A stretch of DNA of 64,000 nt from Thermoanaerobaculia bacterium (GCA_036376245.1 DASVAS010000063.1:27798-91797); one strand, 5' to 3'. Positions 9,701 through 20,844 are shown, numbered from the stretch's first letter. Notes: generated from the letters alone by a model not told the origin. Made by a program: numbers and translations.

Positions 9701-9901
9701 GGGCTCGGTGACCGCCTTCTCCACCTGTTCCGGAGCGACGTCCGGATAAGCCGTCCAGACGACCAGGGAGGGGTAGCGGAGGGACGGCAGCAGCGCCACC
9801 GGCAGCCGGAACAAGGCCACCACCGCCAGGGCGAGGACCAGCAGGTAGAAGGCCGCCATGGCGACCGGCCGGCGGAGCAAGGCTCGGATCAGGGATTCCA
9901 C
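6782..9901 (-). CDS. RND-family efflux transporter permease
   Basis: 1039-aa ORF. The N-terminus MESLIRALLRRPVAMAAFYLLVLALAVVALFRLPVALLPSLRYPSLVVWTAYPDVAPEQVE is a typical AcrB/CzcA start. It lies 12 nt downstream of the adaptor gene. Confidence 0.9.
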   Translation of the reverse strand: MESLIRALLRRPVAMAAFYLLVLALAVVALFRLPVALLPSLRYPSLVVWTAYPDVAPEQVEKAVTEPVEEAVAGAAGLAGVTSRSQLGGSLVRLDFGWNADLDLAAIDVREKLDRLGGLLPERAERPLVLRIDPSDRPIMVLAVGLAGTATGASPPVPDLLRLKQAARDVVARRLEQLDGVARVRVTGGYEPEIEVAVSPARAAAYGIDLEKISGALRDANVSLAGGVVRRGPFRYAVEVSGELRDAGELAATIVSEHGQPPVRLYDVAEVREGTTRRRGLVRLDGGETLLLLVERRPDANTVQTARAVRDALGDLRAQLPGVRLAPVVDESVFIESAISGVVQSLIGGAVLTVMILLVFLRRPRALLAAAVAVPLSLALTLVLFELFGISFNLISLSGLALGVGLLLDNSTVVVENIARLRESGMDAWKAACRGTAEVAGPITASTLTTVAVFLPITFVEGLAGRLFRDQSLAIVCSVLSSLLVALTAVPLIAARDRTVTPDFTGQAGGLTLRLYERLLDVAVRRRWATLAATGLLLALTAAMALRLPREIVPEEEEGRVQVSLTLPTDADVELVSERAREIEAAAARWPEVRHVLADLGERDDARLDLEPRPVYRGDLTLVLAPGKTSADVLPRLRGLGLSPDIGIEARPVRPQLDALLAGSDVDLEIDLTAGNRSDAERSLGPLMAALRGRRELVNLARTDPEAVPAYRVELDRDAVARFGVRPPVLQTYLEAAARGREATRLRSVNDEIPVVLHAAAVDSIERLLAERIPAASGLLPLGSFVRAEAVQLPAVLLRSHQGPIVRLTADTAPGATLQDAVRAVEETAERAALPPSVRVRVGGANESFRSSLIAVGQSLLLSLLLVYLILAAQFESLLQPLVILSAVPLAAVGIVFCLALTGQSWNLMSLTACVVVVGIVDNDAIVKVDFINQARRSGLSLVEAIRAAGRNRFRPIVMNTLTTVLGLLPMSLGLGQGGGLQASLAITIVGGLLSATALTLVVVPVIYMLVDGGAERLRTRRPDPRRGEEDGTEPCAAA

Positions 9902-9913
9902 GGCGTCGCCTCC

Positions 9914-11164
9914 TCACCGCAGGGCGGCTGCCGTTTCACCGGCCAGCACGGTTTCGACCGGCGCCTCGTGCGCCAGGGAGAAGTGCCCGCCGGTGGCGAC
10001 GACATCCCCCGGCGAGAGGCCCTCTACGATCTCGACCAGGCCGCCCGCCTTGCGTCCCACCTGGACGTAGGTCCAGAGCGCCCGGCCCTCCTCGACCCGG
10101 AAGACCACGTCGCGTCCCTGGCGGACCAGCAACGCGCTCGCCGGCACCACCAGCCGGTCCGGCAGGCGCTCGGCCTCCAGCTCGACCGTGGTGAAGAGAC
10201 CGGTCAGCAGCAGGCGGCGGGGGTTGGGGATGGCGACCGTGACGCGGCCGGTGCCGGTCTCGGGGTCGATGCGGGGGTTGATGGTGTGAACCGTGCCTTC
10301 GAGCGTGAGGCCGCCGGCCGACGGGATGCGCACGCGGGCCGGCGCGCCCTTGCGGACGCGCACGATGTCCGCCTCCAAGACGTCCACGTCCACTTTGAGG
10401 CGGTCATCCTGGAGCAGGGTCATCAGCGCGTCCCCGGGGCCGACGTGCTGGCCCGCCTCCACCGCCAGGTCGGCGACACGGCCGGCGAAGGGGGCCAGGA
10501 TGCGGGTCCGCTCCAGGGCCAGACGGCCGCGCTCCACCTGCTGCTCGGCCTGGACAAGGCCGCTGGTGACGGCCCGCACCTCGCCCTGGCGGGAACCGGA
10601 GAGCAGCCGGTCCGCCTCGTAGCGCCGGCGCGCCTCGTCGAGGCTGCGCCGGGGGAGGAGCCCCTCCGCGACGAGCTTCTCCAGGCGGAGGATGTCGTCG
10701 GGAACGGCGGCCGGGGCGGGGCGGGCCTGCTGCGGCGCGGGCTGCTCGTAGTTCACGGCGTAGAAGGCCTGGCTCTTGAGGAGCTCCGCCCGGGCCTCCT
10801 CCAGCGCGACCAGATACTCGCGGTCGTCCAGCCGGACGAGGAGCGCTCCGGCGGCCACGGCGCCGCCCTCCTCCACGGAGCGCTGGACGACGCGCCCCGC
10901 CAGGTCCGCCCGGATCTCGACCTTGCGCCAGGGCTCCAGGTAACCGGTGGCCTCGACCCGCACCGGCAGGTCGGCCCGCCGCGCCCGCGCGGCCTCGACG
11001 CGGGCGGCCCGCGGCTCGGCGGCCACCGGGTCCACCGGCGGGCGGGGGACGGAGGCTTCGGAAGGACTCCTGGAGCTCCAGGCCAGGCCCCCGGTTGCGA
11101 GAGTCGCCAACAGCAGGGCGGCAACGGACCAGCGCAGGTTACGGTTCTTGACAGGGCTGCTCAT
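9914..11164 (-). CDS. RND efflux periplasmic adaptor (membrane fusion protein, HlyD-like)
   Basis: Trimmed to the ATG at 11164 (MSSPVKNRNLRWSVAALLLATLATGG signal/anchor, GGAGG SD). It has a coiled-coil hairpin and beta-barrel pattern (VEATGYLEPWRKVEIRADLAGRVV...). Confidence 0.85.
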   Translation of the reverse strand: MSSPVKNRNLRWSVAALLLATLATGGLAWSSRSPSEASVPRPPVDPVAAEPRAARVEAARARRADLPVRVEATGYLEPWRKVEIRADLAGRVVQRSVEEGGAVAAGALLVRLDDREYLVALEEARAELLKSQAFYAVNYEQPAPQQARPAPAAVPDDILRLEKLVAEGLLPRRSLDEARRRYEADRLLSGSRQGEVRAVTSGLVQAEQQVERGRLALERTRILAPFAGRVADLAVEAGQHVGPGDALMTLLQDDRLKVDVDVLEADIVRVRKGAPARVRIPSAGGLTLEGTVHTINPRIDPETGTGRVTVAIPNPRRLLLTGLFTTVELEAERLPDRLVVPASALLVRQGRDVVFRVEEGRALWTYVQVGRKAGGLVEIVEGLSPGDVVATGGHFSLAHEAPVETVLAGETAAALR

Positions 11165-11216
11165 GACTACCTCCGTTGTGGACCGCGGGCGGAAACTTGC
11201 CGAGGAGAAGCTGCGC

Positions 11217-11250
11217 GCGCCTCCGGCCGCCACAGGGAAGCCGGAGGCGC
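11217..11250 (-). terminator. GC-rich 11-bp stem-loop after the fulvocin-like gene (possible attenuator/partial terminator, no U-tract)
   Basis: gcgcctccggc (11217-11227) pairs perfectly with gccggaggcgc (11240-11250) around a 12-nt loop. The structure lies in the 94-nt gap between 11259 and 11164. Confidence 0.3.
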
Positions 11251-11258
11251 CGTTTGCA

Positions 11259-11990
11259 TCAGGTCGCGGCGTTCACTTTGCAGGAACCGTCACAGTCATA
11301 GGTCCAGAACGTTCCGCACTCGTCGGAGATGCGGATGCAGCCGCCCCCAGTGCAATTGAATCCGGAGCTGCAGTAATCAGAGGCATCGCTGCAACTGCAA
11401 CCGGTGTCCGGGGCGGGCTGCTGCTGGCCGGACGTAAGCTCCTCCACCATCTGCAGGCCCGGGACGATCGCCTCGGCTTTCTGACGGTCGATGAAGTAGA
11501 GGGTGTCCGTATCCGCCGGACCGATACGGGCAAAGATTCTGGCGGCACGGTCGGCGCCGAAGGCCTCCTTGGCTCGGGTTTCCAGACTTTCGACCCGGCT
11601 CCGCATCTGTCGATACTTGAGGCTGGAACGGTCCCTGGTGGCGGCGAAGGTGTCCGGCGTCGCCAGTTGAACAGCTTCCAGCAAAAGCGCCTTTTGCGCC
11701 GGCGTCAGCTCCGTCTCCATCTCCAGAACCCGTTCCAGCTGAGTCCGCCAGATCCGGCTCTTGGCGGCGGCCGGCAGGGCCGCGTAGGCCGCCCGCCGAT
11801 AGGCCAGCGGCATGACGGAGAGCTCTTCATAGGTCTGCGGCAGATTTCCTCTGTTCGCCGCCGCCCATTCGTGGGCTTCGGAGCGGCAGATGCGTTGCGC
11901 GAACGCAGAGCCCGGCAACGCCAGGACGATACCGAGGGAAAGCAGCAGGGCGGTACGGCGGACACACTTCGAGCGGGAACTGGCGTTCAT
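11259..11990 (-). CDS. Fulvocin-C-related pro-bacteriocin: signal peptide + ~170-aa helical pro-region + 8-Cys C-terminal domain
   Basis: Trimmed to the ATG at 11990 (AGGAG SD). The signal is MNASSRSKCVRRTALLLSLGIVLALPGSAFA|Q. The C-terminus CSCSDASDYCSSGFNCTGGGCIRISDECGTFWTYDCDGSCKVN carries a CSCS-ASDYC signature and 8 Cys, as I recall for fulvocin C of Myxococcus fulvus. Confidence 0.7.
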   Translation of the reverse strand: MNASSRSKCVRRTALLLSLGIVLALPGSAFAQRICRSEAHEWAAANRGNLPQTYEELSVMPLAYRRAAYAALPAAAKSRIWRTQLERVLEMETELTPAQKALLLEAVQLATPDTFAATRDRSSLKYRQMRSRVESLETRAKEAFGADRAARIFARIGPADTDTLYFIDRQKAEAIVPGLQMVEELTSGQQQPAPDTGCSCSDASDYCSSGFNCTGGGCIRISDECGTFWTYDCDGSCKVNAAT

Positions 11991-12046
11991 GGATTTCCTC
12001 TCCTTTCTGTTTATCGACCTGGAATGAGAATCGAGTCTTCGGCGAC

Positions 12047-12253
12047 TCAACTACCTGGAGGCGGTGGCGGCGGAGGCGCGTACACGTTGCAGGTGAACTC
12101 CGTGCAGGGGGGAACAAGATCATCGACCAGCCCTCCCAGCACCCGCGACAGAAGCTCCTCCAGAAGCTCCGCGCTGTCGACATCCCGCCGCTCCACACGG
12201 AACAGGGCGCGATTCAGAACGGTATCCTGACAGGGAACTGTTCTCTTTTTCAT
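12047..12253 (-). CDS. Candidate RiPP precursor peptide (68 aa): helical leader, GG motif, Cys-containing core, hepta-proline tail
   Basis: The sequence is MKKRTVPCQDTVLNRALFRVERRDVDSAELLEELLSRVLGG|LVDDLVPPCTEFTCNVYAPPPPPPPGS. A GGGAGGG SD lies 4 nt before the ATG. The gene has its own sigma-54 promoter and sits 262 nt downstream of a radical SAM/SPASM gene. Confidence 0.7.
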   Translation of the reverse strand: MKKRTVPCQDTVLNRALFRVERRDVDSAELLEELLSRVLGGLVDDLVPPCTEFTCNVYAPPPPPPPGS

Positions 12254-12320
12254 TCTACCCTCCCTGAACCTTTGCTGCGTGTTTCTTATCGATCATCTTT
12301 CCCTTGCGCCATCTCTACAG

Positions 12321-12336
12321 TGCAAGCGCCTTGCCA
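12321..12336 (-). promoter_or_regulatory. Sigma-54 (-24/-12) promoter for the precursor peptide / fulvocin-like genes
   Basis: The minus strand reads TGGCAAGGCGCTTGCA. This matches TGGCAC-N5-TTGCA with exact GG-N10-GC spacing, about 68 nt upstream of the ATG at 12253. Confidence 0.75.
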
Positions 12337-12386
12337 GGCTGAAGAGAGGGAAAAGCCTTGTTTCAAGCCTGTTTAAGGCACAGACG

Positions 12387-12402
12387 GGGTAACCGGTTAC
12401 CC
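12387..12402. promoter_or_regulatory. Perfect 16-bp palindrome GGGTAACCGGTTACCC; candidate enhancer-binding-protein site (UAS)
   Basis: Read directly from the sequence. It lies about 50 bp upstream of the sigma-54 promoter at 12321-12336 and shares GGGTA-N6-TACCC with the two dyads at 14122-14158. An extra half-site GGGTAAC lies at 12409-12415. Confidence 0.7.
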
Positions 12403-12443
12403 ATCGGCGGGTAACGGATGACACCATGAAAGCTGATCAATAG

Positions 12444-12475
12444 AAACCAAAAAAACGGGGCGGCAGCGCCGCCCG
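12444..12475 (-). terminator. Rho-independent terminator after the radical SAM gene
   Basis: The minus strand reads CGGGCGGCGCTGCCGCCCCG followed by TTTTTTTGGTTT. This is a GC stem (gggcggc/gccgccc) with a short loop and a U-tract, 40 nt after the stop at 12515. Confidence 0.75.
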
Positions 12476-12514
12476 GAAGGTATCGATGCAGAAAAGGGAA
12501 GGATTCTGGAAGGA

Positions 12515-14014
12515 TCAGAGATCGCAGACCCGCGCGCCCAGGGCGGCGGCGGGAGATCCGGCGGCGTGCGCCAGGTAGGCCTCGGCGACGCTCGCCTTGA
12601 ACCGGGAGGCGAAACCGTCGCAGTAATTCGAGTGGAACTTGCCGCTGCCGGCGAGCGCCAGCACGGCGCAGCCGCCGCCGCAGTGGAGGGCGTAGCGGCA
12701 GCGGCGGCAGGTCGGATTGGATGCCACCGTCCGGCTGCGCCAGAGCTCGGACTGATCTTCCTTCAATTCCACGTGACCGTCCGGCAGCACGCAGCCGATC
12801 CGCACATTGCGGTCCCCGGTGCGCTCCCAGCAGGCGTAGATGTCGCCGAACGGATCGAAGATGTACATCTTGTCGTGGGCGCTGCAGAAGCTCGGCCGCA
12901 GGCTCGGCAATACATTGCCGGGCGAGTCGAAGATCCGCCGGGCGCGGACGCGCAACCCCTCGTCCGGCCGCGCCAGCACCGCCACGTCCGGATGCTCCTC
13001 GCGCAACCGCGTCAGCTCGCGGTCGAGATCCCAGGAGCTGAAGACGCCGCCGCGATCGGTCTTGCCGTTGCCGGCGCGGACCGGCGAGGTATAGGCCGAG
13101 AAGCGCGGGTGGCGGTGCCAGCCCTGGGCGACGATCTCCGCCGCCAGCGCCGGCAGGTTGGCGAGGTTCGCCCGGTCGACGTTGATGCGGACGCTGACCG
13201 CGGCGCCCCGCTCCAGAGCCATGGTGATGTTGGCGGCGATCCTGGCGTAGGAGCCGGAGCCGTCGGCGTGGATGCGCCGCTGGTCGTGCTCCCGCGGCGG
13301 ACCGTCCAGCGTGATCTGGAGGGCCGCGATGCCGGCCGGCCCCAGAAGGTCGGCGTAGGCGTCGATCTCGGTGCCGTTGGTGACCGCCCAGAGGTCCGCC
13401 TCGCCCATCTCGAAGGCGCGGGCCAGGATGTGCTCGACGACCGGCCGGTGGGCCGCCAGCAGCGGCTCGCCGCCGAAGAAGCCGATGTTGCGCCGCCGCC
13501 GCGCTCCGGGCTCCAGGCCGTGGCGCTCCTCGATCCGCGGCAGCGCCGCGAAGATGCGGTCGACCATCGCCGGCCGCATGGTGCGCAGCAGGTGCTTGAA
13601 GCCGCAGTCGGTCCGCATGTGGTCCTGATAACAGTACGAACATCGCAGATTGCAGTCGTAGGTCGGCATGAAGATGTAGCTCGGCGGCTGCCGCAGGGCG
13701 CGGGCGTGGAGCGCCTCGGCGAGCCGGGAGAAAAAGGTTTCTTCTTCCTCCCGCGAGAGATCGGTGAGGTATCCCTGCCGGCGCAGGAGGTCGATCGTCG
13801 CGTCCGCGGGCTGCTCCGCCTCGGCGGCCTCCGGCTCCGGGCTCCAATCGCCGTAGAGGGGCTTCTCGGCCCCCCTGCCCTGGCGTGAGCGAAGGAAGCC
13901 GGCCACCTCGCGGGACACCTTGTCGTGGGCGCCGGTGTAGCCGTGTACCAGGAGGACCTCTTCCTCGTTGTCCGGCAGGTTCACATAGATCGTATAGCTG
14001 CTGGTCCGGAGCAT
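12515..14014 (-). CDS. Radical SAM/SPASM-domain peptide maturase with N-terminal RRE-like domain
   Basis: Trimmed to the ATG at 14014 (MLRTSSYTIYVNLPDNEEEVLLVHGYTGA..., AAGGAG SD). The radical SAM cluster motif is YDCNLRCSYCYQ (CxxxCxxC). The C-terminal SPASM motif is CRRCRYALHCGGGC (Cx2Cx5Cx3C), with an upstream CSAHDK...YACW. Confidence 0.85.
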   Translation of the reverse strand: MLRTSSYTIYVNLPDNEEEVLLVHGYTGAHDKVSREVAGFLRSRQGRGAEKPLYGDWSPEPEAAEAEQPADATIDLLRRQGYLTDLSREEEETFFSRLAEALHARALRQPPSYIFMPTYDCNLRCSYCYQDHMRTDCGFKHLLRTMRPAMVDRIFAALPRIEERHGLEPGARRRRNIGFFGGEPLLAAHRPVVEHILARAFEMGEADLWAVTNGTEIDAYADLLGPAGIAALQITLDGPPREHDQRRIHADGSGSYARIAANITMALERGAAVSVRINVDRANLANLPALAAEIVAQGWHRHPRFSAYTSPVRAGNGKTDRGGVFSSWDLDRELTRLREEHPDVAVLARPDEGLRVRARRIFDSPGNVLPSLRPSFCSAHDKMYIFDPFGDIYACWERTGDRNVRIGCVLPDGHVELKEDQSELWRSRTVASNPTCRRCRYALHCGGGCAVLALAGSGKFHSNYCDGFASRFKASVAEAYLAHAAGSPAAALGARVCDL

Positions 14015-14063
14015 GGCGGGAACTCCTTTCGAGGATACGAACCGCTCGGCGGCAGGGTCCGGG

Positions 14064-14079
14064 TGCAAGCGATGGACCA
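14064..14079 (-). promoter_or_regulatory. Sigma-54 (-24/-12) promoter for the radical SAM maturase
   Basis: The minus strand reads TGGTCCATCGCTTGCA with exact GG-N10-GC spacing and a TTGCA -12 element, 50 nt upstream of the ATG at 14014. Confidence 0.7.
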
Positions 14080-14121
14080 GGCCGGCGCGCGAGGAAGCGG
14101 AACCCCTCGACGCCGAAAATT

Positions 14122-14158
14122 GGGTAATCCATTACCCACAACGGGTAAACTGATACCC
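14122..14158. promoter_or_regulatory. Two dyads GGGTAATCCATTACCC and GGGTAAACTGATACCC (centres 21 bp apart); candidate shared UAS for divergent sigma-54 promoters
   Basis: Read directly at 14122-14137 and 14143-14158. Both fit GGGTA-N6-TACCC. They lie midway between the minus-strand promoter (14064-14079) and the plus-strand promoter (14202-14217). Confidence 0.7.
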
Positions 14159-14201
14159 GTTTGAAACGCGGCACGAACGGGCTCCCTCCGTGGCGATGGC
14201 A

Positions 14202-14217
14202 TGGCACAGCGGGTGCA
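14202..14217 (+). promoter_or_regulatory. Sigma-54 (-24/-12) promoter for the ABC-2 transporter operon
   Basis: The plus strand reads TGGCACAGCGGGTGCA. It has a perfect TGGCAC -24 element, exact GG-N10-GC spacing and a GTGCA -12 element. Confidence 0.7.
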
Positions 14218-14283
14218 ATTCCGTGCGCCGAGTCCATGGCGCGGATCGAAAACCTAGGAGGAGAAGAGAGCGGGGCGACGACG

Positions 14284-15891
14284 ATGCTGGGCGCCTGCAT
14301 CAGAAAGGAAATCCTCTGCCACCTGGCCAGCGTCCGCTTCTGGGTGGCGACGCTGATCACGGTGATCCTCGCCGCCGGGGCGACTCTGGTGGCGGCGCGG
14401 GATTACGAGTCGCGCCTGGAACGGTACGAAGACCGCCTCGCGGCCCAGCAGCGGGAGCTCCGGAACGTTTCGGTCTACTCCTTCCTCCAGCCGGTCGTCC
14501 TGCGGCCGCCGGAGCCTCTCAGCGTGCTCGATCAGGGTTTCGACGCGCGCCTGGGGACGGAGGTGAGGATCCACCTCTTCGGGATCCCCACCCATGCCAC
14601 CGGGAGCTCGCGGGGCAACGAGCTCCTGGCGGGCCTGCCCGCCGCCGAGGTGGACCTCACGACCATCGTCTCCGTGATCCTGGGATTGCTGGCGCTGCTC
14701 CTCGCCTGCGACGCCGTCACATGCGAGCGGGAGGAGGGTACCCTGCGGACCCTGCTCGCCCAGGGGGTCTCCCGCCGCGTCGTCCTGGCGGGGAAGGCGC
14801 TCGGCGGGCTGCTTACGCTCTGCCTGGCCCTCACGGCGGCGCTCGGCGTCAGCTTCGCCGTCCTGACCCCCACCGTGGGCTGGGAGCCCTATGCGGGCCG
14901 CGGTCTCCGGATGGCTGGACTGGTGGCGTCCTACCTGCTCTACCTGGCTCTCATGTTCCTGCTGGGGCTGCTCATCTCGCTGCGCGCGCGGAGCAGCGCG
15001 CGGGCCCTGGTCGTCGCCGTCCTCCTCTGGCTCGTCACCGTCGTGGTCCTGCCCCAGGTGGCCTGGACGGCGGCGGCCAGCCTCGTGGACACCCAGGAGG
15101 CGGCGAGCCGGACGGAGGTCCGGGAACGCCGGCTCGCCGAAAGTGAACGCCGGCGGCTCGGAGAGGCCTTCGCCCGGCACCCTCTGCGCCGGGCCTTCAG
15201 CGGACACACGGCGATCTCCTACACCGCGGGCTCCCATGGGGGAGTCCGCTATCGGAACGGCTCGGCCGCGTACTATGACGCGCTCCGGGAGTACTACGGC
15301 TTCGCGGTCAGATCCGGTCTCCTGCAGGCGGAGCAATCCTACGCGACGCATCGGCGGTATGAGGAGCGCCTGCGGCAAGCGGAGCGGCTCGGTTTCTGGC
15401 TCTCCGCCGCCTCTCCGGCGGTCCTGCTGGACCGCCTTTCGGAGTCCTTCGCCGGCACCTCCTTCGAGGACCACGACGCGTTCCTCGCGGAAAGCCGGCG
15501 GTACCGGCAGACACTCCTCACGTTTCTCACCCGCCAGAGCGCTTTTCGTTCCTGGCGCTGGTTCACCGACGATCCGCCGGAGCGCCTGTACCCCTGGCCC
15601 CGGTTCCTGGGACTGCGCCCCGAAGAAGTCGACGCGGCCCGCGTCCACCTGCTGTTCAACCGCCTGAGCTCGGCGGCAATCCAGCCGAAGCTCCAGCTCC
15701 AGAGGAGCGCGGCCGAGGCCGATCCCTCCCGGCGTCTCGACCTGGCCGGTCTGCCGGGGTTCGCCTACCGCGGCCCGAAGCTGCGCGATTGCCTGTGCCG
15801 TGCCGCCCCGGAAGGCCTCTTCCTCCTGCTGCTCGTCATCCTGACGGGCGCCGCGGCCTGGAGCCGTTTCGTCAGGTACCCGGTGAGGTGA
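14284..15891 (+). CDS. ABC-2-type transporter permease with long C-terminal extension
   Basis: The chosen start is the ATG at 14284 (MLGACIRKEILCHLASVRFWVATLITVIL, a typical ABC-2/NosY-like N-terminus), downstream of the sigma-54 promoter. The ATG at 14236 is an alternative. Multiple TM helices are followed by a helical soluble region and a last TM. Confidence 0.7.
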   Translation: MLGACIRKEILCHLASVRFWVATLITVILAAGATLVAARDYESRLERYEDRLAAQQRELRNVSVYSFLQPVVLRPPEPLSVLDQGFDARLGTEVRIHLFGIPTHATGSSRGNELLAGLPAAEVDLTTIVSVILGLLALLLACDAVTCEREEGTLRTLLAQGVSRRVVLAGKALGGLLTLCLALTAALGVSFAVLTPTVGWEPYAGRGLRMAGLVASYLLYLALMFLLGLLISLRARSSARALVVAVLLWLVTVVVLPQVAWTAAASLVDTQEAASRTEVRERRLAESERRRLGEAFARHPLRRAFSGHTAISYTAGSHGGVRYRNGSAAYYDALREYYGFAVRSGLLQAEQSYATHRRYEERLRQAERLGFWLSAASPAVLLDRLSESFAGTSFEDHDAFLAESRRYRQTLLTFLTRQSAFRSWRWFTDDPPERLYPWPRFLGLRPEEVDAARVHLLFNRLSSAAIQPKLQLQRSAAEADPSRRLDLAGLPGFAYRGPKLRDCLCRAAPEGLFLLLLVILTGAAAWSRFVRYPVR

Positions 15892-17381
15892 GCAAGTTGC
15901 TGAATTCTCTCCTACCTTCGCCATCCTTCGATCCCGCCGCCGGCTCGGGCAAGCTGGCGGCGGAGCCTCAGGCTCCCCGGGGAGTGGTGGCGACGATCGC
16001 CCGGCATGAGGCGGGCCGCCAGATGGCCAGCTTACGGTTCCGCCTGGTGTCGGTCCTGCTGCTCGGTCTCCTCGTCCTGCCGGCGTTCACGGCGTCGGAG
16101 AGGTACGACCGCGAACGGCGGTCACAGGCCGAGGTGGCCGCAAGCCACGACGCGTCTCTCCGCGGAATGACGGTCGACGGGCTGGCGGAGGTCCGGCATC
16201 CGGCGTTGCGCCCGCCGTGGCGCCTCGCCTTCGCGGTCGACGGCGGCCAGGCCGCGACCCCGGACGTCTATGAGCAGGCGCTCAGTCCCCTGATCGCGCC
16301 CGTGCTCCGTCGTGCCGAGCGCGGCAACGACCGCCTCCCAGGCCCCGCGCCGCTGGACTGGATGTTCGTCATCCGGGTGGTCCTCTCGCTCGCCGCTTTC
16401 CTGCTGGGCCATGACGCGATCTGCGGCGAACGGCAGATCGGGACGCTGAAGCTCCTGATGTCCTACCCGGTCCCCCGCTGGCGGATCCTGGCCGGCAAGC
16501 TGGCGGCCCTCTGGGGCTGCCTGGCGGTCCCCTTCCTGGCGGGAGCCGGGCTGAGCCTCGCTCTGGTCTTCGCCCTCGGGCGGGCGCCGCTCGGCGCCGT
16601 GGACCTCGTCAAGGCCGGACTGGTGGTCCTCCTCGGCCTCTGGGCCGCGGCGTTCTTCGCGCTCGCCGGGCTGGCCGTCTCCGCCGCCGCCCGGACGTCC
16701 TCCACCAGCCTGAGCGTGCTCGCGCTCCTGTGGGTCGGGGCCGTGGTGGCCGTCCCCGCTCTCGGCCACCTGCTCGCCCACCGGCTGTCCCCGATCCCGG
16801 CCGAGGGGGAGATCGAGCGGCGCATGCTGGAGGTCCAGCGGCGGATCGCCCGCGAGCATGCCGGCCACGAGGGGCGCTGGCGGGCGCCGGATTGGGCCGC
16901 CAACGACGGCTACGCCTGGGAGAAGGCCTCGGCTCGAGTGGAGACCGAACGCCGGCATCTCCAGGAAGAGATCCGCTGGTGGGTGATCGGCCGCAAGCTG
17001 GAGCAGGCGCGGACCGCCCGCCTCCTCTCCGCCCTGTCGCCGGCCTTGCTCATCCAGGACCTCGGAGAGCGGCTGACGGGCTCCGGCGTCCGGCGGGACC
17101 AGGAGTTCCTGGCGCAGGCCCGCGCCTACCGCGCCGTCCTGGCGGACCGGGTACGGAGGCTCGACCAGGCGGACCCCGCGAGCCCTCACATCCTCTTCTT
17201 CGAGGGCTATCTCTCGCGGCGGACCGTTCCGCCCGGGTCCCTCCCGCCGTTCGCCTTCCGTGAGATCCCGATGGCCGGCGCTCTCGCCGCCGCCCGAGCG
17301 CCTCTCGCGCTCCTCGCTCTCGAAACCCTCCTCCTCGCCGGCTTCGTCTTCCGGCCGCGGAAAGCGGGGGCGCTGCCATGA
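15888..17381 (+). CDS. Second ABC-2-type transporter permease (paralog of 14284-15891)
   Basis: The GTG at 15888 overlaps the upstream TGA (GTGA); GTG at 15984/15987 are alternatives. The segment ATIARHEAGRQMASLRFRLVSVLLLG parallels the ACIRKEILCHLASVRFWV start of the paralog. It has multiple TM helices. Confidence 0.65.
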   Translation: MSKLLNSLLPSPSFDPAAGSGKLAAEPQAPRGVVATIARHEAGRQMASLRFRLVSVLLLGLLVLPAFTASERYDRERRSQAEVAASHDASLRGMTVDGLAEVRHPALRPPWRLAFAVDGGQAATPDVYEQALSPLIAPVLRRAERGNDRLPGPAPLDWMFVIRVVLSLAAFLLGHDAICGERQIGTLKLLMSYPVPRWRILAGKLAALWGCLAVPFLAGAGLSLALVFALGRAPLGAVDLVKAGLVVLLGLWAAAFFALAGLAVSAAARTSSTSLSVLALLWVGAVVAVPALGHLLAHRLSPIPAEGEIERRMLEVQRRIAREHAGHEGRWRAPDWAANDGYAWEKASARVETERRHLQEEIRWWVIGRKLEQARTARLLSALSPALLIQDLGERLTGSGVRRDQEFLAQARAYRAVLADRVRRLDQADPASPHILFFEGYLSRRTVPPGSLPPFAFREIPMAGALAAARAPLALLALETLLLAGFVFRPRKAGALP

Positions 17382-18097
17382 TCGAAGCGATCCACCTCAG
17401 CATGCGCTACCCGAACGGCGTCCTGGCCCTGGACGCCCTCAACCTGCGGGTCGAGCCGGGGGAGATCTACTGCCTCCTCGGCGCCAGGGGCGCCGGCAAG
17501 ACGACGGTGGTCGACCTGTTCCTCGGCTTCCAGGAGGCGACCGCCGGCCGGGCGTTGATCGACGGGATCGAGGTGGCGCGGGAGCCGTTGCGGGCCAGGT
17601 CGCGGGCCGCCTATCTGGCCGCGGACACGGCGTTCTACGGCCGCCTGACGGCGCGTCAGAACCTGGAGCTCTTCGCCCGGCTGGGCGGCCGGCCGGACCG
17701 GACGCGGGCGGACTGCGAGATGGCCCTGCGCGAGGTGGGGCTGCCGGAGGCGGCCTTCGAGCGACGGGTGGCGAGCTTCACCCCGGGGATGACGCGCAAG
17801 CTGGGGGTCGCCGCGGCGCTGGTCAAGGACGCTCCCGCCCTTCTCCTCGACGAGCCGCTCTCCGGCCTCGATCCCAAATCGGCCGCCGAGGTGGTGGAGC
17901 TGCTGGAGCCCCTGCGCGACTCCGGCAAGGCGCTGCTGATCACGCTGGAGGATCTGGTCTGGGCCCGGCAACTCGCCGACCGGGTGGGCATCCTGCAGGA
18001 AGGCCGGCAGGTGTTGACCCGTACGCGGGACGAGCTGAGATACGACAACCTCGAAAAGCTCTATCTGGACTATCTGCGCGGCTTCACGCTTTCCTAG
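17378..18097 (+). CDS. ABC transporter ATP-binding protein
   Basis: 239 aa. Walker A is GARGAGKTT, the signature-like motif is LSGLD, and Walker B is LLLDEP. An ATGA overlap links it to the upstream permease. Confidence 0.9.
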   Translation: MIEAIHLSMRYPNGVLALDALNLRVEPGEIYCLLGARGAGKTTVVDLFLGFQEATAGRALIDGIEVAREPLRARSRAAYLAADTAFYGRLTARQNLELFARLGGRPDRTRADCEMALREVGLPEAAFERRVASFTPGMTRKLGVAAALVKDAPALLLDEPLSGLDPKSAAEVVELLEPLRDSGKALLITLEDLVWARQLADRVGILQEGRQVLTRTRDELRYDNLEKLYLDYLRGFTLS

Positions 18098-18100
18098 ACG

Positions 18101-19504
18101 TCAGACGGCGGAGTCCTCCGTCTCCTCGCCGGTCAGGCCGTACTGGCGCATCTTGTTGAACAGCGTCTTGCGGCTCACGCCCAGGCTCTCGGCGGTGGCG
18201 GTGCGGCTGCCCCGGTGCTCGGCGAGACGGGAGAGGATCATCATCCTCTCCAGCCGCTCGGTGGCCTGGGTCACCGCCTCGCTCAGCGTGAGCCGGACGA
18301 GATCGGACCCGAGGGCCACGTCCGGCCCGGCGTTTTCCCCCCGCACCCGGCCGGGCAGGTCCGCCGCCGTCAGGGTGTCCCCCTCGCAGAGGATCATCGC
18401 CCGGCAGACGGTGTTCTCCAGCTCGCGGATGTTGCCCGGCCACTGGTAGTCGCAGAGCAGTTGCCGGGCGTCCGGCGCGATCGACTCCACCGCCAGGCCC
18501 AGCTCGCGGTTGAAGCGGTCCACGAAGTGGTCGATCAGGAGAGGCAGGTCGGCCGGCCGCTCGCGCAACGGGGGCAGGCGGACGTGGACGACGTTCAGCC
18601 GCCAGTAGAGGTCCTCGCGGAAGCGCCCCGCCCGGCACTCCTTCTCCAGATCCTTGTTGGTGGCGGCCACCACCCGCACGTCCACCGGCCGGGGAGCGCG
18701 GGCGCCGATGCGGTGGATCTGCCGCTCCTGCAAGGCCCGCAGGAGCTTGGCCTGGGCGTCGAGGGCGAGGTCTCCCACCTCGTCGAGGAAGAGCGTGCCG
18801 CCGTCCGCCAGCTCGAACCGCCCCTGCCGGGCCTCGCGGGCGTCGGTGAAGGCGCCCTTCTCGTGGCCGAAGAACTCGGACTCGACCAGCGTCTGCGGGA
18901 TGGCGCTGCAGTTGACCGCCACGAACGGGCCTTCCGACCGCCCGCTGCGGCGGTGGATGGCCCGCGCCACCAGCTCCTTGCCGGTGCCCGATTCGCCGGT
19001 GATCAGCACCGTGACGTCCACCCGCACGACCTTGGCCATCATGCGGAAGACCTCCTGGATCTCCCGGCTGACGCCCACGATCTCGCTGAACCCGTAGCGG
19101 GTTTCGAGATCCTCCCGCAAGGCCGTGTTCTCCGACGTCAGCCGCTTCACCTCGAGAGCGCGGTCGACGACCATCAGCAGCTCGTCGTTGTCGAACGGCT
19201 TGGCGATGTAGTCGTGGGCGCCGCGGCGCATCGCCTCGACCGCCGAGGAGATGGTGCCGTGGGCGGTCATCATCACCACGATCAGCTCGGGGTTCAGGGC
19301 GCGCAGCCGCTTGAGGGTCTCCAGGCCGTCCATGCCGGGGAGCTTCAGGTCGAGCAGCGCGAGATCCGGCTTCGCTTCCGGCAGGGCCGCCAGAGCCTCC
19401 TCGCCCGAGCCCACCTCGGCGACCCGGTGCTGCCGCTCCTGCAGCAGCACGGAGAGGATGCGCCGGATCGGCCGTTCGTCGTCAACGATCAGGATGTTGG
19501 CCAT
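18101..19504 (-). CDS. Sigma-54-dependent response regulator (REC - AAA+ - Fis-type HTH; NtrC family) with GAFTDA loop variant
   Basis: Trimmed to the ATG at 19504 ([15 protein letters not shown]..., phospho-acceptor context [13 protein letters not shown]). The AAA+ Walker A is GESGTGKE and the sigma-54 contact loop reads [10 protein letters not shown]. The C-terminal HTH is [20 protein letters not shown]. Confidence 0.9.
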
Positions 19505-20844
19505 GTCTCTCCTTCGAGCAGCGGCAGGCGGATCGCCACCGTGGTCCCCTCCCCCACCTTGCTCTCCAGGTGGATCTCGCCTTCGTGCTGCTCGATGATG
19601 CCATGACAGATCGCCAGCCCCAGGCCGGTGCCCTCCCGCTTGGTGGTGAAGAAGGGATCGAAGACCCGCCGCAACTGGTCCGGCGGGATCCCCGGCCCGG
19701 TGTCCTCGACGCAGATCTCCACCCAGGAGACGTCGCGAGGGCTCTGGCCGGATCGCGGGGCCCACGGATGGACCGTCACCGAGATCCGCCCCCCGTTCGA
19801 CATGGCCTGGAGAGCGTTGAGCAGGAGGTTCAGGAAGACCTGCTTCAACTGGCCGTCGTCGCCGAGCACGCGGAGGCTTCCGGCCGCGAGATCGCTCCGG
19901 ATCTCCACGCCTTGCTCGGCGGCCCTGGCCTGCACAAGCTGCACCGCCTTGCGGAGAGTCGCCAGCAGGTCGATATCGGACTTCCGGATCTCTCCCGAGC
20001 GGCTGAGGCTGAGGAGCCCGCCCACGGTGCCGTTGATGCGGTCCACCTCGCTCAGGAGCTCTTCGACCAACTGGTGCTTCGGCGTGCCGGGATCGAGATC
20101 GCGCAGCAGGTATTGCATCGTGGAGCGGATCGCCGTCAGAGGGTTGCGGATCTCGTGGGCCACCCCGGCCGCGAGCTGCCCGACGGCGGCCAGACGCTCG
20201 GCCCGGTGGAGGCGGTCCAGGCGCTCGCGCTGGGCGCGGTACAGCGCCGCGTTCTCGAAGGCGAGACTGGCCTGGGAAGCCAGCAGGTTCAGGAGCTCGA
20301 CGTCGCTGCGGCCGAGACCGCCGCCCGGCCTGCCGAGGCCCAGGAGGACAATGCCCGTCAGCCGGTTCAGGGAAATCATGGGGACGCAGACGTTGAGCCG
20401 CAGCCGGTCGAGGAGGTCCCGCTCGGCAGGATCGAGGTACTCGTGGACTCCGGTCTGGCGGTCCAGGATCAGGGAGGTCTCGTTGACGGAAAGCCAGCGC
20501 GCCAGCTTGCCGCGCGCCGGCACCCGCAGATCCGCCAGGTCCGCCTCCGCCAGTCCGAAGGAGAAGCCCGGCAGGAAGGCCGCGGTCGGCCGGTCGGGCT
20601 CCAGGACGGCCATCCGCTCGGGATCGAGCAACTCCCGGATGCGCGCCGCCACGCTGGCCTCCAGGGCTTCGCGGTCGACGATCAGCGCCAGGGACCGGCT
20701 GAGCTCCTGGACGGCACGCCGGTTCGCCTTCCGCCTGCGGAAGCGGTCGAAAATGCCCTCGAAGATGAGCTTTCGCTGCATCCTGCGCGGATCATACGAC
20801 GGAATCTTGTCCCGTCTCGGGGAGCGGCGCACACCGCAATTCAT
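19489..20844 (-). CDS. Cytoplasmic GAF-domain sensor histidine kinase
   Basis: 451-aa ORF with no TM segment and a GAF-like N-terminal half. The H-box is GVAHEIRNPLTAI; the N/G boxes are LNLLLNALQA, EDTGPGIP and GTGLGLAI. It overlaps the regulator start by 16 nt. The start may be the ATG at 20781. Confidence 0.85.
   Translation of the reverse strand: MNCGVRRSPRRDKIPSYDPRRMQRKLIFEGIFDRFRRRKANRRAVQELSRSLALIVDREALEASVAARIRELLDPERMAVLEPDRPTAAFLPGFSFGLAEADLADLRVPARGKLARWLSVNETSLILDRQTGVHEYLDPAERDLLDRLRLNVCVPMISLNRLTGIVLLGLGRPGGGLGRSDVELLNLLASQASLAFENAALYRAQRERLDRLHRAERLAAVGQLAAGVAHEIRNPLTAIRSTMQYLLRDLDPGTPKHQLVEELLSEVDRINGTVGGLLSLSRSGEIRKSDIDLLATLRKAVQLVQARAAEQGVEIRSDLAAGSLRVLGDDGQLKQVFLNLLLNALQAMSNGGRISVTVHPWAPRSGQSPRDVSWVEICVEDTGPGIPPDQLRRVFDPFFTTKREGTGLGLAICHGIIEQHEGEIHLESKVGEGTTVAIRLPLLEGETWPTS

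What the first reader, a model, noticed from the sequence alone, without database searches (positions are those of the whole stretch)
12047..14014. Radical SAM/SPASM maturase with a 68-aa leader-GG-core peptide ending in a hepta-proline tail
The 499-aa enzyme has the CxxxCxxC cluster (CNLRCSYC), a C-terminal SPASM motif (CRRCRYALHCGGGC) and an N-terminal segment (SSYTIYVNLPDNEEEVLLVHGYTGA) like the RRE/PqqD-type domain of peptide-modifying rSAM enzymes. Downstream lies a 68-aa ORF, after a terminator and with its own sigma-54 promoter. It has a helical acidic leader (DVDSAELLEELLSRVLGG), a double-glycine motif and a 27-aa core LVDDLVPPCTEFTCNVYAPPPPPPPGS. The core has two Cys in a C-x4-C arrangement flanked by Thr, Glu, Phe and Asn, which are potential thioether/sactionine-ranthionine-type acceptor residues. 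It ends in a run of 7 Pro. I do not recognise this core as a described RiPP family.
Basis: partly seen in the sequence, partly recalled or inferred. Interest (0 to 1): 0.78.

Follow-up and report, generated by a model that had tools for sequence, protein, structure and literature searches.

The report
Conserved Acidobacteria radical-SAM peptide cassette
This is a real but uncharacterised pair of a small precursor peptide and the radical-SAM enzyme that most likely cross-links its two cysteines; it is conserved with its own exporter and sigma-54 regulatory switch across many soil Thermoanaerobaculia (Acidobacteriota), so it is a new family within a known class of natural products, not a new kind of system.

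Summary
Window 12515-14014 (-) encodes a 499-aa radical SAM/SPASM enzyme with an N-terminal domain that has the fold of a peptide-recognition element (RRE). Window 12047-12253 (-) encodes a 68-aa peptide, preceded by a terminator and a sigma-54 promoter.

The peptide is real. It sits beside the enzyme in 24 of 27 related genomes, and its invariant residues show synonymous codon changes. The conserved feature is the core C-x-x-[F/Y]-x-C-x-x-[Y/F]-x-P. The proline tail and the GG motif vary or are absent.

The enzyme fails every curated family cut-off. Its best matches are cysteine-thioether RiPP maturases (TIGR04463, CefB, PapB; the closest structure is CteB).

The conserved unit is larger than reported. 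It comprises a soluble GAF histidine kinase, an NtrC-type activator, an ABC-2/DUF3526 transporter, the enzyme and the peptide. Tandem palindromes flanked by divergent sigma-54 promoters drive it, and this layout is present in all 25 loci examined.

Enzyme relatives at 50-67% identity pair with other cysteine-repeat peptides, which suggests short Cys(i)-to-(i+3) rings. The chemistry and the biological role are inferred, not shown.

Verdict: an undescribed family of a known kind, of moderate interest.

The parts
12515..14014 (-). Radical SAM/SPASM peptide maturase, 499 aa
   Evidence: PF04055 scores 51.5 bits (cut-off 29.5) and TIGR04085 SPASM scores 48.4 bits (cut-off 27). No equivalog cut-off is reached. 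The AF2 model has pLDDT 81 and pTM 0.82. The top Foldseek hits are CteB, TigE, anSME, SuiB and ChlB.
13685..14014 (-). N-terminal RRE-like domain (residues 1-110), with b1-b2-b3-a1-(disordered insert 44-70)-a2-a3 topology
   Evidence: Secondary structure is. For the domain-only model, the top 10 Foldseek hits are all RRE proteins (TbiB1 with bound leader, LynD), with probability 0.5-0.97 and E 0.01-0.2. There is no PqqD match by sequence.
13631..13654 (-). CxxxCxxC motif (C121, C125, C128) for the SAM-binding [4Fe-4S] cluster
   Evidence: Translation gives CNLRCSYC. The motif is invariant in 44 homologues.
12620..12886 (-). SPASM domain with seven invariant Cys (C377, C395, C436, C439, C445, C449, C465), implying two auxiliary [4Fe-4S] clusters
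   Evidence: The region aligns with the CteB SPASM cysteines.
12448..12474 (-). Intrinsic terminator after the enzyme gene (7 G-C pairs, then a T7 run)
12387..12424 (.). Tandem palindromes GGGTAACCGGTTACCC and GGGTAACGGATGACAC, 22 bp apart: putative activator-binding site for the peptide promoter
   Evidence: Only four such sites occur in the 64 kb window, against 0.35 expected. L001 has the same arrangement.
12321..12336 (-). Sigma-54-type promoter TGGCAAGGCGCTTGCA, about 57 nt upstream of the peptide ATG
12047..12253 (-). Precursor peptide, 68 aa
12131..12253 (-). Leader region (residues 1-41), with conserved L-N-x-A-x-F and LLEELLxxVxG(G) motifs
   Evidence: Alignments.
12056..12106 (-). 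Core CTEFTCNVYAPPPPPPP. The family-wide motif is C-x-x-[FY]-x-C-x-x-[YF]-x-P.
14064..14079 (-). Sigma-54-type promoter TGGTCCATCGCTTGCA for the enzyme gene
   Evidence: It is conserved at the same relative place in all 25 related loci examined.
14122..14158 (.). Tandem palindromes GGGTAATCCATTACCC and GGGTAAACTGATACCC between the divergent promoters
   Evidence: The pair is present in the enzyme/ABC intergenic region of 24 of the 25 loci examined; L019 shows one site at the threshold used.
14202..14217 (+). Sigma-54-type promoter TGGCACAGCGGGTGCA for the ABC operon
   Evidence: TGGCAC/T-N5-xTGCA (TGCT in L022) is conserved in all 25 loci.
14284..15891 (+). ABC-2 permease with a DUF3526 domain (6 predicted TM segments)
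   Evidence: PF12679 and PF12040; TM scan; syntenic in 25 of 27 loci.
15789..17381 (+). Second ABC-2/DUF3526 permease. Coordinates are the longest ORF; the true start is probably near 16020.
17378..18097 (+). ABC transporter ATPase (DrrA / lantibiotic-protection type)
18101..19504 (-). NtrC-family sigma-54 activator (receiver + AAA+ + Fis-type HTH)
   Evidence: It is syntenic in 24 loci and in L036/L037.
19489..20844 (-). Soluble GAF-HisKA-HATPase histidine kinase
   Evidence: No TM segment was found. Syntenic.
11259..11990 (-). Accessory gene: secreted fulvocin C-related protein, probably co-transcribed with the peptide
   Evidence: NF033852 scores 112 bits (cut-off 35). It has a signal peptide. 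It is present after the peptide only in the window, L016 and L024.

Best explanation
This is a RiPP (ribosomally synthesised, post-translationally modified peptide) cassette that is conserved across Thermoanaerobaculia.

Proposed sequence of events:
1. A cytoplasmic GAF histidine kinase phosphorylates the adjacent NtrC-type activator.
2. The activator binds the tandem GGGTAR-N4-TTACCC palindromes and fires the sigma-54 promoters. These drive the maturase, the ABC-2/DUF3526 transporter operon and, in this lineage, a second dedicated promoter for the precursor (and probably the fulvocin-like gene).
3. The maturase holds the precursor leader (L-N-x-A-x-F plus the acidic helix) on its N-terminal RRE-like domain.
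4. Using the SAM cluster and two auxiliary SPASM clusters, it abstracts a hydrogen from an acceptor residue and couples the resulting radical to a Cys thiolate.
5. This gives two thioether cross-links (loss of 4 Da in total), one per invariant Cys.
6. The most likely topology is two in-line four-residue rings, Cys50 to Phe53 and Cys55 to Tyr58. A nested arrangement is the alternative.
7. The ABC-2 transporter exports the product or protects the producer. The leader is removed by a protease not encoded in the cassette.

Shown here: the gene pair, its conservation and synteny, the domain architecture, and the conserved promoter and operator layout.

Inferred: regulator-operator pairing, thioether chemistry, ring topology, export and leader removal.
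For: Pair and selection:
- The peptide sits next to the enzyme in 24 of 27 loci.
- Invariant residues show synonymous variation.
- There are 25 clusters of the peptide in the representative library.

Enzyme class:
- Radical_SAM and SPASM cut-offs are passed.
- Seven SPASM Cys are invariant.
- Best family scores are to Cys-thioether or Cys-rich-peptide maturases: TIGR04463 111 bits, CefB 110 bits, PapB 105 bits.
- The only strong PDB sequence hit and the top fold hit is CteB, the thioether-forming maturase.
- An RRE fold is supported for the N-terminal domain.

Cysteine as the reactive residue:
- The two Cys are the only fully invariant core residues.
- Enzyme relatives at 50-67% identity are all paired with other Cys-repeat peptides: 6x G-C-[IL]-[IV]-x-W, 6x C-x-x-N-S-x-x, and C-G-T-[FY]-C.

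i+3 acceptor:
- Cys+3 is F or Y in about 34 of 37 distinct cores. It is replaced by D or N in P0155 and P0151.
- It is N in all six L031 repeats.
- It is N, D, Q or E (once L) in the 36 M. soli-type repeats.
- PapB makes analogous in-line Cys-X3-Asp rings and tolerates other spacings (PMC9413430).

Regulation:
- The window holds four palindromes, in two pairs, against 0.35 expected.
- The divergent sigma-54 promoters flanking the palindrome site are conserved in all 25 loci; 24 of them show the tandem pair.
- The HK, RR and ABC genes are syntenic, including in the rearranged locus L036.
Against: - No experiment or mass data exist for this family.
- The enzyme fails every equivalog cut-off, so its chemistry cannot be transferred by homology. 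SPASM enzymes at this level of similarity also make C-C, C-O and cyclopropyl products; TigE and SuiB are among the fold hits.
- In the M. soli-type repeats the invariant partner is Trp at Cys+4, not the residue at Cys+3.
- In L035 only one of four Cys has an aromatic residue at +3. The i+3 rule is therefore suggestive, not strict.
- RRE support is at fold level only, with weak E-values (0.01-0.2) and no sequence match.
- Binding of the palindromes by the neighbouring activator is inferred from adjacency alone.
- No leader protease is encoded in the conserved cassette.
Confidence: 0.62

Rival explanations
1. The RiPP pair is the same, but the chemistry is different. The maturase makes carbon-carbon or carbon-oxygen cross-links on the conserved aromatic residues, for example three-residue cyclophanes on F53-T54-C55 and Y58-A59-P60, or a Tyr/Phe link to another side chain. 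The two Cys then form a disulfide, bind metal or ligate the auxiliary cluster only transiently.
For: - The two aromatic residues are nearly as conserved as the Cys, and Trp is invariant in the M. soli-type repeats.
- Cyclophane-forming and other non-thioether SPASM enzymes also appear in the hit lists: YhhB 54 bits and FxsB 46 bits; SuiB and TigE.
- The Y-A-P triplet is highly conserved.
Against: - Scores to the cyclophane, Lys-Trp and cyclopropyl families are about half those to the Cys-peptide maturases.
- The L031 relative has six C-x-x-N repeats with no aromatic residue at all.
- The cores of P0155 (both aromatics) and P0151 (the second aromatic) lack them but keep both Cys.
Confidence: 0.2
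2. The product is not an exported antimicrobial or signal. It is an intracellular factor (a redox cofactor or metal-binding peptide, in the manner of PQQ or mycofactocin) needed for a lineage-wide physiological function, and the ABC-2 transporter handles something else.
For: - The core is almost invariant across enzymes that differ by up to 40%, and the cassette is found in many species-level genomes. This is unusual for bacteriocins.
- The kinase is soluble and therefore senses an internal cue.
- No leader protease and no C39 transporter are present.
- The core contains E...Y and V-Y, which recall PqqA and MftA.
Against: - PqqE and MftC are weak matches: 42 bits for mycofactocin rSAM, and PqqE ranks 29th by fold.
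- No cofactor-using dehydrogenase or other pathway gene is syntenic.
- The transporter shares the bidirectional control region with the maturase in every locus.
- The same operator drives lanthipeptide and fulvocin-like secreted products in relatives.
Confidence: 0.12
3. The small ORF is not the substrate. The enzyme acts on another protein (for example the Cys-rich fulvocin-like protein) or on a non-peptide substrate, and the small ORF is a regulator or a chance ORF.
For: - A Cys-rich secreted protein lies immediately downstream in the window.
- High-GC genomes carry many spurious ORFs.
Against: - The fulvocin-like gene is present in only 3 of 27 loci, whereas the small ORF is present in 24.
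- Codon-level purifying selection acts on the small ORF.
- The leader-plus-Cys-core layout and the RRE-like domain fit a peptide substrate.
- The sulfatase-maturase model scores only 52 bits against a cut-off of 349.
Confidence: 0.04

Closest known systems
CteB / thermocellin (CteA) system of Clostridium thermocellum (PDB 5WGG, 5WHY)
   Same: It shares the architecture of N-terminal RRE, radical SAM barrel and SPASM domain with two auxiliary clusters. It is the best PDB match by sequence (E 2.4e-12) and by fold (E 1e-15). Its substrate is a small Cys-containing peptide encoded next to the enzyme.
   Different: Identity is only about 19-20%. The precursor is unrelated (SCIFF-like, Cys-rich), the core motif differs, and there is no sigma-54/ABC-2 cassette. 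The TIGR03974 SCIFF maturase model scores 60 bits against a cut-off of 425.
PapB / freyrasin (PapA) ranthipeptide system
   Same: It is a SPASM maturase that installs several short in-line Cys-to-acceptor thioether rings (Cys-X3-Asp/Glu; PMC9413430). It is the third-best family hit at 105 bits, and the alignment covers almost the whole catalytic region (residues 115-459).
   Different: The score is far below the cut-off of 340. Here the conserved acceptor candidates are Phe/Tyr at Cys+3, not Asp/Glu at Cys+4. There are two motifs, not six. This enzyme has an extra N-terminal domain that the PapB model does not cover.
NCBIfam TIGR04463 (maturase paired with Cys-rich peptides) and NF038107 CefB (Cys-every-fifth peptide maturase)
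   Same: These are the best-scoring curated families (111 and 110 bits). Both are RiPP maturases for Cys-patterned peptides, and the two Cys here are also five residues apart.
   Different: The scores are roughly one fifth of the cut-offs (525 and 600), so this enzyme is not a member. The precursor has only one C-x4-C unit plus aromatic positions. As far as I could find, neither family has published chemistry.
Sactipeptides (e.g. subtilosin A, thuricin CD)
   Same: These have Cys sulfur to alpha-carbon links made by RRE-SPASM enzymes. To my knowledge Phe and Tyr serve as acceptors in known members. The variable acceptor identity seen across relatives here would fit alpha-carbon chemistry.
   Different: Known sactipeptides have nested hairpin rings with Cys clustered at the N-terminus and acceptors far to the C-terminal side. 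Here the Cys and the candidate acceptors alternate at i/i+3. No sactisynthase model reaches its cut-off.
Two-component, promoter-coupled control of RiPP operons (e.g. NisRK-type autoinduction of lantibiotics)
   Same: A kinase/regulator pair is encoded next to the biosynthetic and transporter genes and controls several promoters in the cluster.
   Different: Here the regulator is an NtrC-type sigma-54 activator with a soluble GAF kinase. The promoters are of the -24/-12 type, with a shared bidirectional upstream activating site.

Membership tests
Radical SAM superfamily | CxxxCxxC cluster motif and a Radical_SAM domain score above the Pfam gathering threshold | tested here: met
   C121/C125/C128 are invariant. 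PF04055 scores 51.5 bits against a cut-off of 29.5.
SPASM subfamily | C-terminal seven-Cys motif CX9-15GX4C ... CX2CX5CX3C ... C, and a TIGR04085 score above its cut-off | tested here: met
   The pattern C377-x12-G-x4-C395, C436xxC439x5C445x3C449, C465 is present and all seven Cys are invariant. TIGR04085 scores 48.4 bits against a cut-off of 27.
RRE (PqqD-like RiPP recognition element) | Three-stranded sheet followed by three helices (winged-helix-like), recognisable by sequence profile or by fold | tested here: inconclusive
   The fold is met. The topology is b8-12, b19-24, b30-34, a35-43, a71-80, a88-107. The top 10 Foldseek hits of the isolated domain are all RRE proteins (TbiB1, LynD), but with E 0.01-0.2 and TM 0.3-0.46. 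By sequence it is not met: there is no PqqD or other Pfam hit and no PDB profile hit. Leader binding was not tested.
RiPP precursor + maturase pair | A small ORF adjacent to the enzyme, conserved with it, with a leader and a core carrying the modifiable residues | tested here: met
   The ORF is adjacent in 24 of 27 loci, under purifying selection, and has a conserved leader and Cys core. Modification itself is not testable with these tools.
Ranthipeptide (PapB family, NF047865) | Score at or above 340 bits; Cys-X3-Asp/Glu motifs; S to beta/gamma-carbon links | tested here: not met
   The score is 105 bits. No conserved Asp/Glu lies at Cys+4; Glu52 at Cys+2 is variable (E/Q/L/T). The linkage type cannot be tested here.
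SCIFF / thermocellin maturase (TIGR03974) | Score at or above 425 bits; a six-Cys-in-45 precursor | tested here: not met
   The score is 60 bits. The precursor has two core Cys and matches no NCBIfam model.
CefB (NF038107) and TIGR04463 maturases | Score at or above 600 and 525 bits respectively | tested here: not met
   The scores are 110 and 111 bits.
Anaerobic sulfatase maturase (TIGR03942) | Score at or above 349 bits; no RRE; the substrate is a sulfatase | tested here: not met
   The score is 52.5 bits. An extra N-terminal RRE-like domain is present. No sulfatase gene is in the conserved neighbourhood.
PqqE / MftC / QhpD cofactor maturases | Equivalog score reached; PqqA, MftA or QhpC substrate and pathway genes nearby | tested here: not met
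   QhpD scores 70.6 bits (cut-off 453) and MftC 42.6 bits (cut-off 265). PqqE ranks 29th by fold. No pathway genes are syntenic.
Double-glycine (PCAT-processed) leader peptides | A conserved GG/GA/GS cleavage motif, plus an ABC transporter with an N-terminal C39 peptidase domain | tested here: not met
   GG is present in the window but is replaced by GK, GS, GR or AG in relatives. The transporter is ABC-2/DUF3526 with a separate ATPase and has no C39 domain.
Sigma-54 / bacterial enhancer-binding-protein regulon | -24 GG / -12 GC promoter with 10-nt spacing, an upstream palindromic activator site, and an EBP with an AAA+ sigma-54 interaction domain | tested here: met
   The window has three promoters and two palindrome pairs, and the layout is conserved in all 25 loci. 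The adjacent gene carries PF00158 Sigma54_activat at 240 bits. Actual binding and activation are not testable here.

The most novel reading that the evidence does not exclude
This enzyme clade (the window family plus its 50-67% identical relatives, including the one in the cultured Methylobacterium soli) installs a cross-link type not yet described: a short-range Cys(i) sulfur link to the residue at i+3. In this family that residue is Phe or Tyr, so the link would be a benzylic beta-carbon or aryl thioether, giving two tandem four-residue rings followed by a polyproline tail. The near-invariant product would serve as a lineage-wide secreted effector or signal of a sigma-54 'peptide arsenal' regulon in Thermoanaerobaculia. 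That regulon also controls lanthipeptide and fulvocin-like genes.
Probability: 0.2. Interest if true: 0.7.

Novelty: new variant of a known kind. Interest (0 to 1): 0.5.

Why it matters
Acidobacteriota are abundant in soil, hard to culture and almost unexplored for peptide natural products.

This cassette is a compact, well-delimited target of seven genes, with a precursor of 58-92 aa (68 aa in the window) and a single tailoring enzyme. It is present in dozens of species-level genomes, so heterologous reconstitution is realistic.

The comparative data give a concrete hypothesis: Cys to i+3 rings, with Phe/Tyr as acceptors. If confirmed, this would add a new thioether motif to the radical SAM toolbox used for peptide macrocyclisation.

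The conserved bidirectional sigma-54 control region links this peptide to other secreted peptides in relatives. It offers a handle on how these bacteria switch on their secreted-peptide genes.

If the chemistry turns out to be an ordinary sactionine or ranthionine, the finding is a new family of a known class and nothing more.

Tried and rejected
- **Named family for the peptide.** NCBIfam and Pfam scans gave no hit.
- **Sequence-level RRE.** A Pfam scan of 16 N-terminal domains at E up to 10, and a PDB profile search, found nothing relevant. Only the fold comparison supports an RRE.
- **Literature.** Eight full-text searches found no description of this family or of the ABC-2/DUF3526 link. 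The terms covered Thermoanaerobaculia/Acidobacteriota with radical SAM, RiPP, ranthipeptide and SPASM; DUF3526; Cys-aromatic thioethers; and tryptathionine. The rSAM-RiPP compendium paper (PMC10288494) does not mention Acidobacteria.
- **Conserved leader protease or further tailoring gene downstream of the peptide.** All-against-all clustering of downstream ORFs in 25 loci found no family present in more than 8 loci. The neighbouring S8 subtilase is not syntenic in L036 or L037, so I rejected it as part of the cassette.
- **Fulvocin-like protein as the real substrate.** Rejected, because it is present in only 3 of 27 loci.
- **Known RNA element in the intergenic regions.** There were no Rfam hits in the whole window.
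These positions vary across the family, so they are unlikely to be fixed acceptors.
- **Enzyme-leader complex prediction.** Not possible with the tools on hand.


Full report
**1. Observation**

The 499-aa protein (12515-14014) contains:
- CNLRCSYC at residues 121-128.
- A complete SPASM cysteine pattern: C377-x12-G-x4-C395, C436xxC439x5C445x3C449, and C465.

The 68-aa ORF (12047-12253) reads MKKRTVPCQDTVLNRALFRVERRDVDSAELLEELLSRVLGG-LVDDLVPP-CTEFTCNVYAPPPPPPPGS. A GGGAGGG ribosome-binding site sits 6 nt upstream of its ATG.

Between the two genes lie, in order:
- A clean intrinsic terminator at 12458-12474 followed by a T7 run, the only such site in 11200-14400.
- Two palindromes (12387-12402 and 12409-12424).
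- A near-consensus sigma-54 promoter, TGGCAAGGCGCTTGCA, at 12321-12336.

**2. The small ORF is a real gene**

- A word-indexed search found 11 homologous peptides. Their alignment shows an invariant C-T-E-F-T-C-N-V-Y-A-P5 block and a conserved leader.
- A scan of GTDB species-representative genomes with the enzyme returned 27 loci. Almost all are Thermoanaerobaculia MAGs, plus one Holophagales MAG and Methylobacterium soli.
- An HMM of the peptide finds an ORF directly downstream of the enzyme gene in 24 of those loci (E 1e-13 to 1e-41). Weaker, divergent copies occur in L022 and L026.
- A profile search of 1.84 billion representative proteins gave 25 clusters, all 58-92 aa with the same layout.
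- At the invariant residues the codons vary synonymously: TGC/TGT, TTC/TTT, TAC/TAT, four Val codons and all four Pro codons. That pattern is what selection on the translated product produces.

**3. What defines the peptide family**

Across 64 peptides (37 distinct cores) the two Cys are invariant:
- Cys+3 is F or Y in about 34 of 37 distinct cores.
- The residue three after the second Cys is Y or F in about 33 of 37.
- The residue two further on is P in 30 of 37.

Thr51, Glu52, Thr54 and Asn56 vary (T/S/V/N/A; E/Q/T/L; T/S/N/V; N/T/S/H/V).

The proline run is a sub-clade ornament. Relatives end in ...YAPK*...YAPKS*...FAGGESA*...YMP*...YQPAL* and ...SPYG*.

The GG is often GK, GS, GR or AG. 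The segment between it and the first Cys varies from 3 to 13 residues.

Two leader flavours carry the same core:
- MKK...L-N-x-A-A-F-R...LLEE-L-x-x-V-x-GG.
- An L-S-F-D...L-E-Q-R-x-E type (L026, L036, P0156).

**4. The enzyme**

- It passes the Pfam Radical_SAM and NCBIfam SPASM cut-offs but none of 57 family-level models.
- The best are TIGR04463 (111 bits, cut-off 525), CefB (110 bits, cut-off 600) and PapB (105 bits, cut-off 340).
- The anaerobic sulfatase maturase model scores 52 bits, QhpD 71 and MftC 43.
- The only strong PDB sequence match is CteB (E 2.4e-12).
- An AlphaFold2 model built on 44 homologues (pLDDT 81, pTM 0.82) matches CteB best (E 1e-15), then TigE, anSME, SuiB, ChlB and SkfB.
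- More than 1,500 homologues exist in the metagenome-scale database. The top 120 share 59-95% identity, and those that carry a source name are from Thermoanaerobaculia or Acidobacteriota.

N-terminal domain (residues 1-110):
- It folds as three strands followed by three helices, with a disordered insert at roughly residues 44-70.
- Modelled alone (pLDDT 83), its ten best PDB matches are all RiPP recognition elements: TbiB1 bound to its leader peptide, and the LynD heterocyclase. The scores are weak (E 0.01-0.2, probability 0.5-0.97).
- Sequence profiles do not detect PqqD.
- I therefore call it RRE-like by fold, not proven.

**5. The conserved unit is larger than the finding**

The loci where the neighbourhood could be read share these genes:
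- A soluble GAF-HisKA-HATPase kinase (window 19489-20844; no TM segment).
- An NtrC-family sigma-54 activator (18101-19504).
- An ABC ATPase (17378-18097).
- Two ABC-2 permeases with a DUF3526 domain (14284-17381).
- Divergently from the transporter, the maturase and the peptide.

In a 12-Mb genome (L036, enzyme 67% identical) the genes are rearranged and the peptide is transcribed divergently. The same set of genes and the same palindromes are still together there.

Nothing downstream of the peptide is broadly conserved. The fulvocin C-related gene that follows the peptide in the window is present in only three loci.

**6. Regulation**

- The motif GGGTAA-N4-TTACCC (two mismatches allowed) occurs four times in the 64-kb window against 0.35 expected. 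The four sites form two tandem pairs, 21-22 bp apart. One pair precedes the peptide and the other lies in the maturase/ABC intergenic region.
- In all 25 related loci examined, the intergenic region has the same layout. A TGGCAC/T-N5-xTGCA promoter (TGCT in L022) faces the ABC operon, the palindrome site follows, and a TGGYNN-N5-TTGCA promoter (TTGCT in L022) faces the maturase. 24 loci show the tandem pair; L019 shows one site at the threshold used.
- In the window these elements are at 14202-14217 (+), 14122-14158 and 14064-14079 (-).
- This phylogenetic footprint strongly supports a bidirectional sigma-54 control region. The adjacent activator is the obvious candidate binder, but that is an inference.
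- The extra terminator, palindrome pair and promoter in front of the peptide occur only in the window, L001 and partly L002. Elsewhere the peptide is co-transcribed with the enzyme.
- In other genomes the same palindrome-plus-promoter unit precedes a class III lanthipeptide synthetase with its peptide (L004), a fulvocin-like gene (L024) and other small secreted products. The regulator therefore appears to control a set of secreted peptides.

**7. Clues to the chemistry**

Enzyme relatives at 50-67% identity sit next to quite different peptides, all built on cysteine repeats:

| Relatives | Peptide |
|---|---|
| Methylobacterium soli, a Pyrinomonadaceae MAG and several metagenome contigs | Leaderless ~110-aa proteins with six G-C-[IL]-[IV]-x-W units |
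| Roseiflexaceae MAG (L031) | Leader plus six C-x-x-N-S-x-x units |
| L035 | Two peptides with ...C-G-T-[FY]-C-S...PP |

Cysteine is the one constant, which fits the thioether-forming enzymes that score best.

The residue at Cys+3:
- F or Y in the window family, replaced by D or N in two outliers.
- N in all six L031 units.
- N, D, Q or E in 35 of 36 M. soli-type units.

PapB makes in-line Cys-X3-Asp/Glu rings on the beta or gamma carbon and tolerates other spacings (PMC9413430). I therefore propose two in-line Cys-to-(i+3) thioether rings, C50-F53 and C55-Y58.

Weak points:
- In the M. soli type the invariant partner is Trp at +4.
- L035 fits only in part.
- SPASM enzymes of this similarity range also make C-C and C-O bonds.

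**8. Comparison and novelty**

- In mechanism and architecture this is a sactipeptide/ranthipeptide-like RiPP system, closest to CteB and PapB.
- It is not a member of any curated family. The tested cut-offs for PapB, SCIFF, CefB, TIGR04463, anSME, QhpD and MftC all fail.
- Its precursor matches no model. I found no paper describing it.
- It differs from described systems in four ways: the C-x-x-aromatic tandem motif, the polyproline tail in one sub-clade, the strict link to an ABC-2/DUF3526 transporter, and the sigma-54 two-component switch with a shared bidirectional operator.
- I rate it a new variant of a known kind.

**9. Verdict**

| Claim | Confidence |
|---|---|
| This is a genuine RiPP precursor-maturase pair | About 0.9 |
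| The modification is a Cys thioether | About 0.6 |
| The rings are in-line i/i+3 | About 0.35 |

The biological role (antimicrobial, signal or something else) is open. Interest is moderate at 0.5: the target is well delimited, experimentally tractable and undescribed, from an under-studied phylum, but it lies within a class where new families are found regularly.

Noticed in passing
window 11259-11990 (-): A secreted, Cys-rich fulvocin C-related protein (NF033852, 112 bits). It starts 57 nt after the precursor stop with no terminator between them, so it is probably driven by the same sigma-54 promoter. It follows the peptide in only 3 of 27 loci (window, L016, L024).
   Followed up: partly
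L023 7550-7888 (Methylobacterium soli YIM 48816); also L028 5545-5868, L029 4457-4792, L030 3878-4219, L032 1746-2087, L034 5551-5907: Leaderless ~110-aa proteins with six G-C-[IL]-[IV]-x-W repeats. Most begin directly with MGC. They are encoded right after rSAM/SPASM enzymes that are 50-67% identical to the window enzyme and lack the ABC/NtrC cassette. They match no NCBIfam model. One is in a cultured strain, which makes it a handy test system. L034 has a Trp-halogenase-like gene next door.
   Followed up: partly
L031 4573-4875 (Roseiflexaceae MAG) and L035 3646-3867, 5565-5771: Further substrate types sit next to related enzymes. One is a leader plus six C-x-x-N-S-x-x repeats. The other is a pair of peptides flanking the enzyme, with C-x-C-P-x-L-x-x-C-G-T-[FY]-C-S cores and Pro-rich ends.
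   Followed up: no
L004 8047-11206; L024 7909-8785; L022 10517-11000; L010 8552; L017 8863; L025 11258: The same tandem palindrome plus sigma-54 promoter precedes other genes in relatives. These are a 57-aa peptide with a class III lanthipeptide synthetase (RamC_N + Pkinase + LANC_like), a fulvocin-like gene, a 77-aa Gly/Asp-rich peptide, and several secreted proteins. This suggests a regulon of secreted peptides.
   Followed up: partly
L037 11771-21500: In a 5.9-Mb Thermoanaerobaculaceae contig, thiopeptide-type genes (YcaO, ThcOx/nitroreductase, Thiopep_pre, Lant_dehydr_C) lie immediately after the precursor peptide. The region downstream of the cassette looks like a hotspot for peptide natural-product genes.
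   Followed up: no
window 20951-23302 (+): A secreted subtilase (Peptidase_S8) with a Cys-rich C-terminal extension, divergent from the histidine kinase. It could be a leader protease, but it is not syntenic with the cassette in L036 or L037.
   Followed up: partly
window 12056-12076 (-): Seven consecutive proline codons use mixed synonymous codons. From general knowledge, such runs stall ribosomes and need EF-P, so translation of this precursor may depend on EF-P. This was not tested.
   Followed up: no
window 6782-11233 (-): An RND pump (AcrB family) and its membrane-fusion protein follow the fulvocin-like gene. The same pair follows the peptide in L014 and L016 only, so it may be an accessory export route in close relatives.
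   Followed up: partly
window 1-64000: No Rfam family reaches its gathering score anywhere in the window, on either strand.
   Followed up: yes
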